This document shows, in pieces, positions 8,541-52,998 of a DNA stretch of 64,000 bases. The translations under genes were made by a program, and so were the position numbers. Each line of letters starts with the position of its first letter. The stretch's first letter is position 1. This stretch comes from Eledone cirrhosa (Eukaryota). The DNA lies in contig OZ024742.1 of assembly GCA_964016885.1 (NCBI GenBank), positions 355,756,001 through 355,820,000 of the forward strand, given 5' to 3'. The notes beneath the pieces are model-generated. The model saw only the letters and a program-made list of their open reading frames with translations. It was not told where the DNA came from and ran no database searches.

Positions 8541-8866
8541 TAGGATAGAAAACGAAAAATCAGTGATGCATCTGAACTCAATTTATTGTGTGTTACAATT
8601 GTTTTACCGGCGGACAGCTCCAGACGCGATCATTGTGTGGATCTGTCTGATTCTGGACCCGCAGGTTCGACCGACACGTCTACAGACAGATCCACACAAT
8701 GATCGCGTCTCGAGCTGTCCGCCGGCGAAACAATTTTAACACACAATAAATTGAGTCCAGATGCATCACTGATTTTTCGTTTTCTATCCTAACATAATCT
8801 GCTCTGTAACAGCATAGAGTGCTCAACCGGCATACCGCCTATAGAAGCATCTTAGCTACCATCAGA
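8541..8866 (+). mobile_element. Short fold-back PLE insertion (inverted arms 8541-8650 / 8682-8791 plus tail)
   Basis: ~110-bp inverted repeat; 3' half of a hammerhead (GAAA CAATTG TA in the left arm); bulged hairpin 8801-8820; flanked by direct repeat acatatgtaataatata. Confidence 0.75.
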
Positions 8867-9185
8867 CACATATGTAATAATATATATATATATATATATA
8901 TGAATGTATGTAGAGTATATTTGGCAATATACTGTATTTTTAATTAAAAACACCAATACAAACATATATATATATATGTATATGTGGCTAGAATTCCTTT
9001 CAGAATTCATTGACCTGCGCATGTATTGTTTTTTGGCGGTAGTCTCCTTCCTCCTATTTTCGAGACAGTGTGAGATTTTCTTTAGAACTGCCGGGCTAAC
9101 AACCTAGCAGCTCCCTCAAGAACTGATGGTGATTATCGCTAAATATTGATGTTGATTTGGTTATCAATATTAATATTATTGGGCA

Positions 9186-9308
9186 CCCACTGAAGAATTA
9201 TAAGAGCCCACTTGAATAACTTTATGTTGATCTTATACAAGTTTCTACATACATTTCTATAATTTCACCCAACTTGTAGAAATCTTAGAGTGAAACGAGT
9301 CGTCTGAG
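9186..9308 (+). ncRNA. Type I hammerhead ribozyme with ~95-nt stem II, in a PLE terminal remnant (~8985-9475)
   Basis: CCCA-CTGAAGA-ATTATAAGA...TCTTAGAGT-GAAA-CGAGTCG-TC-TGAG; one stem I mismatch. Confidence 0.65.
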
Positions 9309-9562
9309 AAGTGATATATTTGATATATCTCATATTAAATGATACAGCCAATTTTCAGCACAATACAATTAGTTAGCACCCGAACGTTTAATTAGGAATA
9401 TACTCAGGTATTTCCTAATGTTTGTTGAGTGAGTTGGAATTTGGCCGGAGTATCGCTATTAGCTTTCTCCGATTATGTATATATATATATAAGTAGGAAA
9501 AGCTTGCTCAACGTGCCATGTAGTTGGACTGAAGCCGAAAAGATGTTGACTCTAGCAGCATT

Positions 9563-9830
9563 ACCATCACCACCACCAACACCAACACCACCACCACCAC
9601 CACCACATCCACTATCACTAACACCACATCCACCACCAACAATACCACCACCAACACCACATCCACCAACACCAATACAACCACCACGACATCCACCACC
9701 ACCACCACCAACACCACCACCAACAAAACATCCACCACCAACAACACCACATCCACCAACACCAATACCACCACCACCACATCTACCATCCCCACATCCA
9801 CCACCACCACATCCACCAACACCACCACTA
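9563..9830. repeat. Degenerate (CCA)n repeat
   Basis: Directly visible; source of the Pro-rich ORF. Confidence 0.9.
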
Positions 9831-10800
9831 TCTCTGTTAGCATGTTCAATCTTTACACAAATTCGGTGTTTTTATTAATAGTGAAAGTGTTCTCTAAAGC
9901 GTTAGGCCTACTTTTACGTTATTCTGGTTTGTATTTGAATATTTTCTGAATAAACAGTGTTTATCAGTCGAATGGATTTCAGTTTAGAACTGATGCTCAT
10001 CTCTGCATATGAAATTAGCGTTTAATCATAATAAACCACAGCGGAAACCTCTTCAGAGAGAACATTTAAATCTCTACTTAATTGTACTTGTTAGCAGAAT
10101 TAACCCCAGTAGAAAGATAACTATTCCGAGTGTTTCACTCGTATTACGATACCAATATTACGATTATGAGATGTCTGATGAAAATATCTTGCAAAATGTA
10201 GATGATGCTATCAGTGACATAACTACAAATTATTATGGTTGCAGTAGTGGTTAAACCGTTTATAGTGTTGTAGTTTTACACTACATTTTAAATAAGAATA
10301 TGTTGATGACATAAGCAAAAAAATAAAGAACTGCTTTGCCTCAGTGTATTTGTGTGTCTGTGAAACCAGGTCAGAACACAAAGGAACCAAACTCTCACTG
10401 TCACTGCCGACGTCACTCCTCTCCCCAGCCCTCGCTATTATGAATAAGTGGGAGCCCTCGTGCTGGCCGCCTTGCGACCCCAGCGGACAGAATAGAAAAA
10501 GCGTTTTCCCAGAGAATGGCGAGGGAGACGCGCTGGAAGAGCCATTCCAGCAATGTCAAGTGGAATTATCCAATACCATTCTTTAGTATCGATGTGCTTA
10601 TGCACTCTGCTCATTTCTGTCACTCATACACAAATGGAAACACGTATTATAACTATGGATATTCCACTAAATTTCAAAGACATATTTATTGATTTAATTG
10701 AAATCATAACATGGAAGAAATTTCCTTTGCAAATAATGCGTGAAAGGGAATGTTTCCATGAAATATATGTTACCATGAAGGGCTTAATATCCACATTATT

Positions 10801-10993
10801 AGCGGTGGATTGGCAGTATCGATAGAGAGTCGGACGCCATGCTTTCCAGCATAGTTACGACTCTTTACGCTCTGAGTTCAAATCCCGCCGATGTTCACTT
10901 TGCCTTTCATCCTTACGGGGTCGATAAAATAAAGTACCAGTAATGTACTGGGTAATTGCTGGCCTTGTGCCAAAAAAATAGAAACAATTATTA
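10801..10993 (+). mobile_element. SINE family A
   Basis: A box/B box head (GAGTTCAAATCC) and core TTTGCCTTTCATCCTTACGGGGTCGATAAAATAAAGTACCAG. Confidence 0.88.
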
Positions 10994-49900: not shown

Positions 49901-51219
49901 CACAACACACCATGATAGTCTAGAGATTGATTCTGACACAGCCTTTCTAAGATGGCCAACAACTTCCAAATCTTTCTAACTTTGAGATTGAGTATAACAC
50001 ACACACACTTTGGTTGAATATCTTATTTTATTTCTTTTATCATCTTATTCCTTCTACCATTTTATTACCAATATTCTTAGGTCTATAATACAAATATATA
50101 TCGAGGTGAATTCATGTTTTATAGTTCTCAAAGCAAATCAAAAGTGAAAACGAAAAATAATATTGTACTGGGAGATTACTGCTACGCCCAAAGAAATTAC
50201 AACTTACCAACATATGATTTCGATAAGTAGTGAGAGAATATTGCACAAAATGGCTGTAATTTGCTGTTGACGGAAATAGCAACAGATTCCTCAAATAGTC
50301 AGAATAACGTTGTCGTTGAATACTTGTCTTTGTTAACAATCGTGCAATGTCAAATTTATTATGGTATAATGCATATTTCTATTACTTACGTAATATGTTT
50401 GCTATTTATATGGGGGTAGGTCTCTAATCCAATATTTCTATTTCTGATAAGGCGATGTTTAACGGAAATTTTGCAATGTCAGATTAAATATTTAACAGGA
50501 ATTCAGTGATGTTCCTTAAATTTGTGTTCAAAATCTGTCGGATTCGATAATGTAAACACTAATTAGTGGTACATTTAATTGACCATTTATAATTAATGTT
50601 CTGATCAAGCTTAAGACAAACACTGTAATCCGCTTTGGGATCATAGTCATACTGTATGACATTTTCGAGACACAAATGTTCTGTTGTAAGTAAATTATTT
50701 TTTATATCGTAAACCTGCTCTACACTGTCCAAGTAAACAACTAGTTATGTCCTGTTTTAAAATAGAGTTGTAGGTTTGATACATTAAAACACGTATGTAT
50801 TATTCAATATTGAATGAATACATCCGATACTCATGGTTGATATCCGGGCACCTCAGATAGACCCCCAAACATTCATTATGTCTTCATGTTCTTTTTGAAA
50901 TAATTAGTGTCAATGGGTCTTGATTATTTTCTGGACCAATACAATTTTCATTCTAAATCACGATGCTGATATCTTAGCTTTCAAGTGACTGTACAATCAT
51001 AAGTAAGCATATGTAATGCTGCAATAATAATGGCTATATTTCTTTGATATATTCTATCTTGACTCTAGATTCTAGGGTACATTTCCCCCTAAACACCACT
51101 CTACTCTAATAAAATCATGGTAACGCTATGGAATGGTATGTCAAATGTACCAGTTTCCCTATAAATCTAATATACTCTGTATTCAGTAAACACTTATTCC
51201 ATTACATGTGTATCCATTT

Positions 51220-51500
51220 TACTTAGTGGTTAGGGTGATAAGTTAGGGTTTCGATTCAAGCTGGCTCGTTGTGTCCTTGGGTGAGAGTCTTTATTTCATG
51301 TTGCTCTAGTTCACACAGCTGACAAAAAGGAGCTGTAGCTGTAATTCGAAGGGCTAGCCTTCTCTGACACGCCGTGAAGCTGAAACTCCCTCAGAAATTC
51401 ATAAAAGGTACACTTTTCTGTATAATGCTCCTATACTTGCTCCTTAATCTCACAAGCAGACTGTTCTGTCGTTCGAATAGCTGGAAAGCCCGTCATTGCA
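51220..51500 (+). mobile_element. SINE family B
   Basis: CTTAGTGGTTAGGG...TTCGATTC...GTTGTGTCCTTGGG...TTTATTTCATGTTGCTCTAG. Confidence 0.7.
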
Positions 51501-51660
51501 TATGAATGTTGTCCATAATACAATACATTATGTCACACTCTAATTAAGGATGTTGCCTTGATAAAATTCCATGGTTTGGAACATGTTACCTTAGTCTATT
51601 CCTTTACATGGATAGATGCTGGAATATTGGAAGATTACGTGATCTAAGTAGTACATGTAT

Positions 51661-51790
51661 GGACGCGTGGCTTAGTGGTTAGAGAGTTAGATTTGCAATC
51701 ATAATGTTGCGAGTTCAATTCTTGGACTGCGAGATGAGTTATGTTCTTGAGTAAGTCACTAGATTTCACTTTGCTCTTTCTGAAAGGAGT
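51661..51790 (+). mobile_element. SINE family B, 5' part
   Basis: GCGTGGCTTAGTGGTTAGAG (A box) and GAGTTCAATTC (B box). Confidence 0.7.
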
Positions 51791-52776
51791 TAGACCGGTA
51801 GATCACATCAGCAATGGAAAGAAGAAGACAAACATTGTTTCTGATTTAACGAGTTCCACCTCATTCGGGAACCAAATGAGGTCTGGCATCTTGGCGTCCA
51901 TTCAAAATATAATACTCACTCAACAGCTACAATGTTTTATCGATAGAGGTGTTAGGGTAGGAGCTTTCCCTTAATGCAGTGTGTTCAGTAGACAGCATAT
52001 CTAGAGTCATAAATAAAGACGGCGATTGTGGAGGTAGCATGGCGGAACGTTGAAGGTCTCCACCTCAAAATATGAGATCCCGGGTTCTATCCAACTGTGT
52101 GGCATATTTAGCAAATGTCGTTTACCTTAGCCCCGGGTTGTCTCATGTCTTGTGAGTGAAATTATGTCACCGGTAACTGTTTGGAAGCTCATCGCCTGGA
52201 TAGTCCTCGAAGAGGGTACAGGTGTATCTTGAATGTTCAGCCATTTACACACTACGTTCATGAGTAATCTGTCCCAAATATCGGAGGAGGGAGCTCTCAT
52301 CGTCGAAACTGACGAATGTCCATTCCAGAGATGTCATGGAGACACTTACATTCACTATACACTGTACTCTCTGTAAATACCTTACTTCTGCTGCAAGGTT
52401 CTCTATTGAGATGTTAACACTGTATTGCTAATATACGGAATTGAACAACTAAAATATTTACTTCGACATACAGAGAACATGAACTGTTCTGACAATTCCA
52501 TAAGTATCCCTAAACAGGTATAAATACTTTCATCAATATAGATCTTAATCTACTAACTGTTTTATACTCTTCTTTCTTTCTCTCTCTCTCCTCTCTCTCT
52601 CTCTCTCTCTCTCTCTCTCTCTCTCTCTCTCTCTCTCTCTCTCTCTCTCTCTCTCTCTCGCTATCTCTCTCTCTCAGTCTCTCCCTCTCTCTCATTCTCT
52701 CTCTCTATATATATCCCTCTCTCTCTCTATCTCCCTCTCCCTCTCTCTCTCTCTCTCTCTCCGTATATATATATAT

Positions 52777-52998
52777 AATATACAATAAACAATACAATAT
52801 AGTTACCTCATTACCAGAGGCTTCCCGAATAAGACGAATACAAGAAACTTCCGCATTCGTTGTATTCATCTTATTCGGGAAACCTCTGGTAATGAGGTTA
52901 TTGTATTGTTTATTATACATTAAATTTAGCTCTGTAACTTACATAGAGCACTCTTCAGTTCTATGACTTTTTCAATTTTCAACGGGAACTTCAATACT
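52777..52998 (+). mobile_element. Short fold-back PLE insertion
   Basis: Inverted arms ~52777-52843 / 52860-52922; half hammerhead GAAA-CCTCTGG-TA; bulged hairpin 52929-52949; (TA)n flanks. Confidence 0.75.

What the first reader, a model, noticed from the sequence alone, without database searches (positions are those of the whole stretch)
8541..52998. The two ends of fold-back insertions bracket the bulged hairpin
Seen: in at least 7 insertions one arm runs into (TA)n at an AT-rich spot ~3-12 nt before the hairpin, while the other arm continues ~30-90 nt past it (8541 vs 8866; 14912 vs 15110; 24731 vs ~26240; 27004 vs 26650; 41984 vs 42180; 42712 vs 43562; 52777 vs 52998). The 12662 vs 14810 pair behaves similarly, and the Naiad inverted arm at 37390 stops at ...aatccgtatat, exactly where the 5' UTR copy continues ttaGCTC. 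Inference: there are two stereotyped junction sites, one each side of the hairpin, using TA microhomology with the target. This suggests twin priming, or protein bound on the hairpin defining where second-strand synthesis ends.
Basis: partly seen in the sequence, partly recalled or inferred. Interest (0 to 1): 0.78.

Follow-up and report, generated by a model that had tools for sequence, protein, structure and literature searches.

The report
Twin RNA hairpins set Penelope ends
These fold-back insertions are Penelope-like retrotransposons that nearly always end at two fixed sites, one at each end, and each site lies a few bases upstream of its own small conserved bulged hairpin, which likely docks one of two reverse transcriptases that copy the RNA from both broken DNA ends at once.

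Summary
The insertions are Penelope-like elements (PLEs), mostly Hydra clade, not Naiad. The two termini are the known PLE 'tail' sites.

New here:
(1) The ends do not simply bracket one hairpin. Each lies about 2-9 nt upstream of its own RCUC-stem-loop-stem-UN-GAGY hairpin. Hairpin A follows the upstream site; hairpin B follows the downstream site and survives only at tandem junctions.
(2) Pairing is almost obligate: 276 of 282 fold-backs have one A and one B end (36 of 37 in random DNA), against about half expected.
(3) The hairpin co-varies in Hydra PLEs of other organisms (30-40% protein identity), only in the 2-nt-bulge register, and sits unannotated in published consensi.
(4) Either arm can be the longer, and solo ends of both kinds exist, so a second-strand stop is rejected and twin priming supported.
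(5) Template-matched (CT)n/(AC)n runs at some junctions suggest telomerase-like slippage.

Local AT content does not explain the sites. A Neptune-like family obeys the pairing without this motif. Protein binding, dimer action and the RNA itself are inferred, not shown.

The parts
8541..8870 (.). F85 fold-back; site A end at 8541-8543 (minus arm), site B end at ~8870 (plus arm)
8796..8820 (+). hairpin A of F85 (basal ACTC mutated to AATC in this copy)
12490..12514 (+). hairpin A of an F85-related copy, B end at ~12562
12662..14810 (.). F126 partial tandem (minus strand): A end at 12662-12664; tail-only inverted B arm 14740-14808 joined by microhomology
13935..13970 (-). hairpin A of F126 at the tandem junction; site B at ~13897 and a degenerate hairpin B follow
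14036..14097 (-). type I hammerhead-like core upstream of site A (second copy 12722-12783)
14913..15110 (.). F149 short fold-back (pLTR of a ~3.5 kb Hydra PLE); A end 14913, hairpin A 15038-15061, B end 15110
15198..15218 (-). hairpin A of family F152
19771..24568 (.). Neptune-like PLE fold-back (F197): B end 19771, A end 24568; no GCTC hairpin
24731..26333 (.). F247 fold-back; A end 24731, hammerhead-like core 26088-26126, hairpin A 26179-26212, B end 26333
26650..27004 (.). F270 fold-back; B end 26650, long-loop hairpin A 26700-26780 (minus), A end 27000-27004
33961..37390 (.). autonomous-type Hydra PLE HyA, broken ORF on minus strand; A end 33961-33966, B end 37387-37390
36540..36557 (-). 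hairpin B of HyA, 3 nt after the internal copy of site B, upstream of the ORF
37059..37158 (+). hammerhead-like motif with variant core (CCGAAGA) of HyA; second copy 34022-34121 minus
41985..42180 (.). F149 short fold-back; hairpin A 42107-42130 (3' strand mutated)
42219..42687 (.). F197 fold-back, B end 42219, A end 42687
42712..43562 (.). F427 tandem plus short inverted A arm; hammerheads 42779-42849 and 43314-43384, hairpin A 42924-42947 and 43455-43478, hairpin B 43040-43060, B end followed by (CT)n then (TA)n
46455..46557 (+). HyB: 3' half of hairpin A, tail, site B and hairpin B (46539-46557) just before a Hydra-type ORF
52777..52998 (.). F527 fold-back; A end 52777, hairpin A 52929-52949, B end 52998
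54068..54225 (-). short solo B arm with hairpin A at 54140-54167
63441..63751 (.). F197 fold-back, B end 63441, A end 63751

Best explanation
Hydra-clade Penelope-like elements carry two copies of a small bulged hairpin downstream of their hammerhead, their insertions end just upstream of hairpin A at one end and of hairpin B at the other, and each hairpin likely docks one reverse transcriptase of a two-active-site complex that primes both nicked target strands. Shown by sequence: the order hammerhead, site A, hairpin A, spacer (the 'tail'), site B, hairpin B, ORF; the fixed ends; the A+B pairing; independent arm lengths; short microhomology at the centre. Inferred steps: (1) the GIY-YIG domains nick both strands of an AT-rich or (TA)n target; (2) each 3'-OH anneals to 2-6 UA-rich bases held just 5' of a hairpin and may slip, adding template-matched repeats; (3) both cDNAs run towards the RNA 5' end, stop independently and are joined head to head; a very short arm gives an apparently solo copy with or without tail; (4) because copying starts upstream of hairpin B, new 3' ends lack it, so only copies that span a tandem junction would stay active, which would explain the pLTR; (5) arms longer than one unit would need a multimeric or circular template.
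For: Pairing: 276 of 282, and 36 of 37 in 600 kb of arbitrarily placed stretches, with A and B ends about equally common (507 vs 518). Hairpin 5-9 nt after the start of site A in 15 of 27 end pairs under a strict descriptor, 0.07 expected from shuffles. Hairpin B after site B in HyA 17 of 17, F427 32 of 35, F126 4 of 7 continuations. Prospective test: F149 had no known continuation; a genome pattern search gave 482 matches (some places counted twice), nearly all listed ones with one continuation, and hairpin B was present in 5 of 5 loci read. Other organisms: in 40 non-redundant GCTC..GAGC motifs chosen without asking for an upper stem, the first upper pair is Watson-Crick in 38 (permutation mean 20.2), only with a 2-nt bulge. 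RNAalifold predicts the same fold; 41 compensatory cells, 0 of 500 shuffles. Arms: A longer 15, B longer 10, equal 6 of 31; overlaps of 1-9 nt at 26 of 44 junctions; the two arms of one HyA insertion are closer to each other than to other copies in 35 of 35 (0.006 vs 0.024). In vitro precedent in another clade: two internal start sites flank the tail, both strands are cut and extended, RNA 3' of the start sites is needed, dimer predicted (PMC11167929).
Against: No RNA or protein-binding data. Single hairpins are weak: folding z-score below -2 in only 1 of 16 window segments. 12 of 27 end pairs fail the strict descriptor; two of these (c12, F527) show a 2-bp version and c49 a 1-nt bulge, while others, including Neptune-like F197 (15 of 15 A+B), keep the pairing with no such motif. 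Hairpin B was not seen for F85, F247, F527 or F270, where no tandem copy was fetched. B arms show no pile-up at site A (172 of 234 pass it), so one RNA versus two is unresolved. The arm-identity signal appears in HyA and weakly F126 only, is absent in 7 of 10 families and reversed in F85, and could be conversion. The anole study saw no difference in start site between strands and no template-target homology. Six pairs are B+B or A+A.
Confidence: 0.72

Rival explanations
1. One cDNA primed at site B snaps back and copies itself; protein bound on the hairpin stops this second strand at site A.
For: Some centres are near-symmetric palindromes (6 of 31 HyA fold-backs within 20 nt; F149 centres); arms of one insertion are nearly identical in HyA; self-priming was proposed for rotifer PLEs (PMC3846280 passages).
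Against: The A arm must then be nested in the B arm, but it reaches further in 15 of 31, by up to about 3 kb. Solo A ends exist. Site B has its own downstream hairpin, so both sites follow the same rule.
Confidence: 0.05
2. The hairpins act in DNA: the endonuclease recognises or resolves a transposition intermediate at these motifs, trimming one end to site A.
For: Craig et al. ascribe the tail to EN-mediated resolution; Frangieh et al. report earlier work that the tail was needed for Penelope EN cleavage (the original was not read).
Against: Hairpin B is absent from every B end, so it cannot act in the product DNA there. Template-matched reiterations at both ends look like initiation. The anole start sites match the genomic ends.
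Confidence: 0.1
3. Each target end is primed independently and picks site A or B at random from a pool of RNAs.
For: No strand difference in start site in the anole in vitro assay; A and B ends are equally common.
Against: Predicts about 50% A+B; observed 276 of 282. Arms are source-concordant in HyA.
Confidence: 0.06
4. Whole palindromic master copies are copied as units, so both ends are simply inherited.
For: F149 copies are of similar size.
Against: Centres and arm lengths differ in nearly every insertion; F149 is the pLTR of a 3.5 kb element.
Confidence: 0.03
5. Ends fall wherever local TA microhomology is best; the hairpin is incidental.
For: Both sites are UA-rich; 81.5% AT in the 10 nt before the motif in other organisms.
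Against: Longer TA runs inside the tails are almost unused; motif enrichment and covariation.
Confidence: 0.01

Closest known systems
Hydra clade of Penelope-like elements (Craig et al. 2021, PMC8557442)
   Same: RWK and DKT motifs, CxCx5C linker, C-terminal GIY-YIG without CCHH, hammerhead, (TA)n flanks, partial tandems, inverted 5'-truncated arm, tail at one end.
   Different: The paper's main text has no 'hairpin' or 'stem-loop' and its supplement no 'hairpin'. It calls the tail optional, 30-40 bp, and ascribes it to EN resolution. Here tails are 60-170 nt, the pairing is near-obligate, and two hairpins define the sites. Both hairpins are visible by eye in its Hydra-1_Ajap consensus and hairpin A in Hydra-2_Ajap and Hydra-2_Amil.
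Anole Poseidon PAc in vitro system (Frangieh et al. 2024, PMC11167929)
   Same: Two internal RT start sites bounding the tail, AT-rich target, both strands cut and extended, downstream RNA needed, predicted dimer.
   Different: Other clade; an AC-rich stem loop, no paired hairpins or one-site-per-end rule described; no template-target homology reported, whereas here TA microhomology is the rule.
LINE-1 twin priming (recalled, not read)
   Same: Both target ends prime first-strand cDNA; head-to-head join by microhomology.
   Different: In L1 the second priming site is random and internal, and arms do not overlap. Here both sites are fixed by RNA structure and arms usually overlap.
Telomerase repeat addition and 3' stem-loop LINEs such as CR1/L2 (recalled)
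   Same: A structured RNA element positions a short alignment region; slippage adds repeats.
   Different: The element lies 3' of the start site, is duplicated, and is not copied into the end it defines.
Non-LTR retrozymes (PMC7229834; bioRxiv 2026.07.22.740005)
   Same: Short hammerhead-bearing tandem units such as F427 (about 530 bp) derived from PLE pLTRs.
   Different: The passages searched show no hairpin, tail or initiation element.

Membership tests
PLE, Hydra clade | RWK motif and DKT in place of DKG | tested here: met
   HyA ORF (794 aa, L345): RWK at 37, DKT at 120; F149 parent ORF has RWR and DKT
PLE, Hydra clade | C-terminal GIY-YIG with CxCx5C linker and no CCHH | tested here: met
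   CNCHLPDRC at 654, LVY..YIG at 673 with one Cys, no CX2-5CxxC
PLE, Hydra clade | hammerhead motif in the pLTR | tested here: met
   pattern scan; HyA and F247 have a variant core; Rfam gave no gathering-level hit; cleavage not tested
PLE, Hydra clade | (TA)n flanks, partial tandems, inverted arms | tested here: met
PLE, Hydra clade | length generally under 3 kb | tested here: inconclusive
   HyA unit is 3510 bp with a single 794-aa ORF and a long, partly low-complexity 3' region
PLE, Hydra clade | RT phylogeny places it in the clade | not tested
   no named reference proteins were available as tool sequences; 49 unnamed homologues at 28-43% identity
PLE, Naiad clade | N-terminal GIY-YIG, DKA motif, CxC domain, no canonical hammerhead | tested here: not met
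   EN is C-terminal, the DK motif is DKT, hammerhead present
PLE, Neptune clade (family F197 only) | C-terminal GIY-YIG with CX2-5CxxC linker and CCHH | tested here: met
   read by eye in the broken frames of 19761-24100 minus; no tree made
Known Rfam RNA family (for the hairpin) | match to a covariance model | tested here: not met
   0 gathering hits in the window; six loci at E up to 1 gave only miRNA-family hits far below their gathering scores, 63 of 64 in the microsatellite-rich L345
Twin-priming TPRT | both target ends prime first-strand cDNA, joined by microhomology | tested here: inconclusive
   genomic signature met; the reaction itself is not testable with these tools

The most novel reading that the evidence does not exclude
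Hydra PLEs integrate by obligate two-ended first-strand synthesis from one RNP: a telomerase-related RT dimer reads a duplicated RNA hairpin code, one subunit per hairpin, and before elongating it reiterates the 2-nt template next to each hairpin like telomerase. Much of the (TA)n, (CT)n and (AC)n around these elements would then be written by the RT rather than targeted, making PLEs a main source of this genome's microsatellites and of their own future targets.
Probability: 0.3. Interest if true: 0.9.

Novelty: new variant of a known kind. Interest (0 to 1): 0.74.

Why it matters
How PLEs make pLTRs, inverted arms and tails is called an open question in the papers read. A conserved, duplicated cis-element that sits a fixed few bases from each start site, plus a 98% one-site-per-end rule, turns that into point-mutation experiments. 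It explains why an active PLE would need a tandem junction, gives annotators a way to call PLE ends and to recognise MITE-like fold-backs as PLE products, and offers a programmable two-ended insertion chemistry in the closest relatives of telomerase.

Tried and rejected
ACCC/AGCC variant in F149 as a marker of template origin: it occurs in both arm types and several subfamilies and is probably mostly post-insertion mutation; uninformative. Empty-site search for the origin of (TA)n: first version had a bug; the second found mostly older PLE ends as targets. Target-site duplications: 10 of 242 flagged against 3 of 242 in a control, only one clear (L315, 24 nt), plus one seen by eye (L353). Stalling of B arms at site A: no pile-up. 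Hairpin B in Neptune-like F197: the single case (L243/L485) is a junction with another family; 23 genome matches share no continuation. Own-genome DNA search for F197 returned nothing. The 'reit' class is noisy and is not used. and model R1 used a mis-indexed structure and are discarded; one search is the correct count. One search had an indexing bug; one search replaces it. Pfam finds no family for the HyA protein. No RNA holder listed. Earlier findings of the scan: none returned.
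Full report
SETTING. The window lies in a 3.0 Gb animal genome of 1796 contigs; my impression of a cephalopod is recalled and untested. It is dense in microsatellites and inverted repeats. Broken ORFs at 16486-18158, 35028-36556 and 46581-48929 are PLE-like. [quoted passage not shown] That is the Hydra clade as defined in PMC8557442, not Naiad. The 19771-24568 element looks Neptune-like. 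Hammerhead-like cores lie upstream of the ends in several families.

OBSERVATION. The listed pairs are real, with corrections given in the observation check. I fetched 30 loci for each of eight queries, 60 arbitrarily placed 10 kb stretches and 60 longer HyA loci. Ends are sharp: in HyA, 45 of 101 non-continuing arms end at two neighbouring positions of site A and 45 at one position of site B. Better TA runs nearby are almost unused, so AT content is not the cause.

PAIRING RULE. De novo clustering of 3246 sequence ends at (TA)n gave 27 upstream/downstream end pairs. Among 282 head-to-head pairs in 25 of them, 276 are A+B, 5 B+B and 1 A+A; in the arbitrary sample 36 of 37 are A+B; A and B ends total 507 and 518. 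The HyA query could only hit B arms, which does not bias the partner's type. Arms under about 24 nt are missed.

TWO HAIRPINS. The A end is 4 nt before another hairpin of the same build (37224-37292) and the B end 3 nt before the named one. After site A, 15 of 27 pairs carry RCTC-stem-loop-stem-TN-GAGY with at least 3 upper pairs, against 0.07 expected; loops run from 3 to about 60 nt. After site B, where a tandem continuation exists, the motif recurs: HyA 17 of 17, F427 32 of 35, F126 4 of 7, and HyB in the window at 46539-46557. For F149 no continuation was in hand, so I predicted one. The search gave 482 matches, some double-counted, many in arrays about 3.5 kb apart; 5 of 5 loci read have hairpin B a few bases after site B, and three of them run on into a Hydra-type ORF. 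The same test failed for Neptune-like F197, which still pairs A+B in 15 of 15.

CONSERVATION. In 78 metagenome loci with Hydra-type proteins at 30-40% identity, 41 of 85 hammerhead-like cores have the hairpin within 230 nt (37 at 33-58 nt), 11 have a second one 55-83 nt further on, and 9 of 85 reverse-complement controls score. In several loci a repeat copy ends 2-6 nt before a hairpin (some of those ends are contig ends). A non-circular test fixed only GCTC and GAGC: the first four upper pairs are Watson-Crick in 38, 30, 24 and 24 of 40 (permutation means 20.2, 16.0, 10.7, 11.9), and only with a 2-nt bulge that starts with T in 39 of 40. On 32 hand-picked short hairpins RNAalifold gives the same fold with 41 compensatory cells; that set was chosen for the motif, so one search is the stronger test. 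Published consensi show it by eye: Hydra-1_Ajap begins with both hairpins and ends just before hairpin A; Hydra-2_Ajap and Hydra-2_Amil end with hairpin A plus a tail; I did not see a clear case in Hydra-1_Amil, Hydra-1_Obim or Hydra-1_Crog. Single hairpins are not unusually stable.

ARMS AND JUNCTIONS. Of 31 simple HyA fold-backs taken, the A arm reaches further 5' in 15, the B arm in 10, and 6 are within 20 nt. Junctions overlap by 1-9 nt in 26 of 44, are blunt in 5 and gapped in 13. Some arms exceed one unit (L342, L345, L348). The arms of one insertion are closer than arms of different insertions in HyA (35 of 35) and F126 (12 of 13), not in seven other families, and the reverse in F85. 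This fits two first-strand primings from one source and not copy-back.

SLIPPAGE. (CT)n lies between element and (TA)n in 8 of 22 F85 A ends, 12 of 25 F427 B ends and 5 of 22 F247 A ends; (AC)n in 11 of 22 F85 B ends and 5 of 14 F152 B ends; none in 46 HyA A or 58 HyA B ends. The unit matches the template dinucleotide before the TA, but F149 A ends, with a CT there, show it in only 1 of 92. Longer repeats of the template end occur (L124, L140, L120). One insertion has a 24-nt target duplication outside both (TA)n runs, which implies runs added at insertion (L315). Later microsatellite slippage is not excluded.

SHORT FOLD-BACKS. In F149, 132 of 144 arms stop within a 17-nt zone about 60 nt upstream of site A. 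The peak (32 arms) is at an A in an initiator-like context 29 nt after a TATA-like box, and 19 of these 32 have an extra G. This suggests priming close to a capped 5' end of the RNA (inference; motif labels recalled).

LITERATURE. Seen: PMC8557442 main text parts 1, 2, 4, 5, 6 of 10, passages, supplement parts 1, 52, 53 and one search; PMC11167929 parts 1-2 of 4 and passages, its supplement 2 held no usable text and supplement 1 was not read, so its RNA fold figure may bear on novelty; PMC4209133 part 1; the 2026 retrozyme preprint part 1 and passages; passages of PMC3846280, PMC7229834, PMC13282606, PMC8969392. The tail, inverted arm and two start sites are in print. Searches turned up no description of the paired hairpins, the A+B rule or twin priming in PLEs; the older Penelope papers of 2004-2006 were not read.

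VERDICT. Real, partly known, and extended here into a specific, testable model (confidence 0.72). New variant of a known kind; interest 0.74.

Noticed in passing
window 4018-4178, 7845-8031, 10801-10993, 56099-56644, 57280-57381, 61842-62992, 63855-64000: A ~190 bp dispersed repeat, SINE-like, in many copies on both strands; it also abuts (TA)n runs but has no hairpin after its ends.
   Followed up: no
window 38289-40672 (minus): AP-endonuclease plus RT fragments of a non-LTR retrotransposon (Pfam PF14529, PF00078).
   Followed up: no
window 43846-46320: Large fold-back (F439) with A+B ends 39 nt apart and no GCTC hairpin; other pairs (c61, c70, c92, c119) are similar and may be other PLE clades with their own element.
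   Followed up: partly
L479 around 1400-1500; window 14913-15032: F149 pLTR has a TATA-like box and initiator-like site inside the hammerhead's stem II; transcripts from there would lack the ribozyme's 5' half.
   Followed up: partly
window 37059-37158 and 26088-26126: Hammerhead-like motifs with CCGAAGA in place of CTGANGA in two families; activity unknown.
   Followed up: no
G000:C1:91476605-91487265 and C1:437200345-437210965: Head-to-tail arrays of at least four ~3.5 kb F149 units, candidates for active source loci or rolling-circle products.
   Followed up: no
window 14808-15148, 24568-24733, 42179-42219, 42687-42712: Insertions of different PLE families share single (TA)n runs in chains, so each insertion's flank is the next one's target.
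   Followed up: partly
window 30015-33361: 1055 bp direct repeat at 97% with internal 229-230 bp tandem units, and a long-loop hairpin-like motif at 31210-31269 (minus); probably another PLE-related unit.
   Followed up: no
alignment A3 (L401-L470 and window copies): The bases right after the hairpin are also conserved (ACTY in most), and second hairpins nearly always have C-G as first upper pair (10 of 11) while first hairpins more often have T-A (24 of 37), a possible A/B identity mark.
   Followed up: partly
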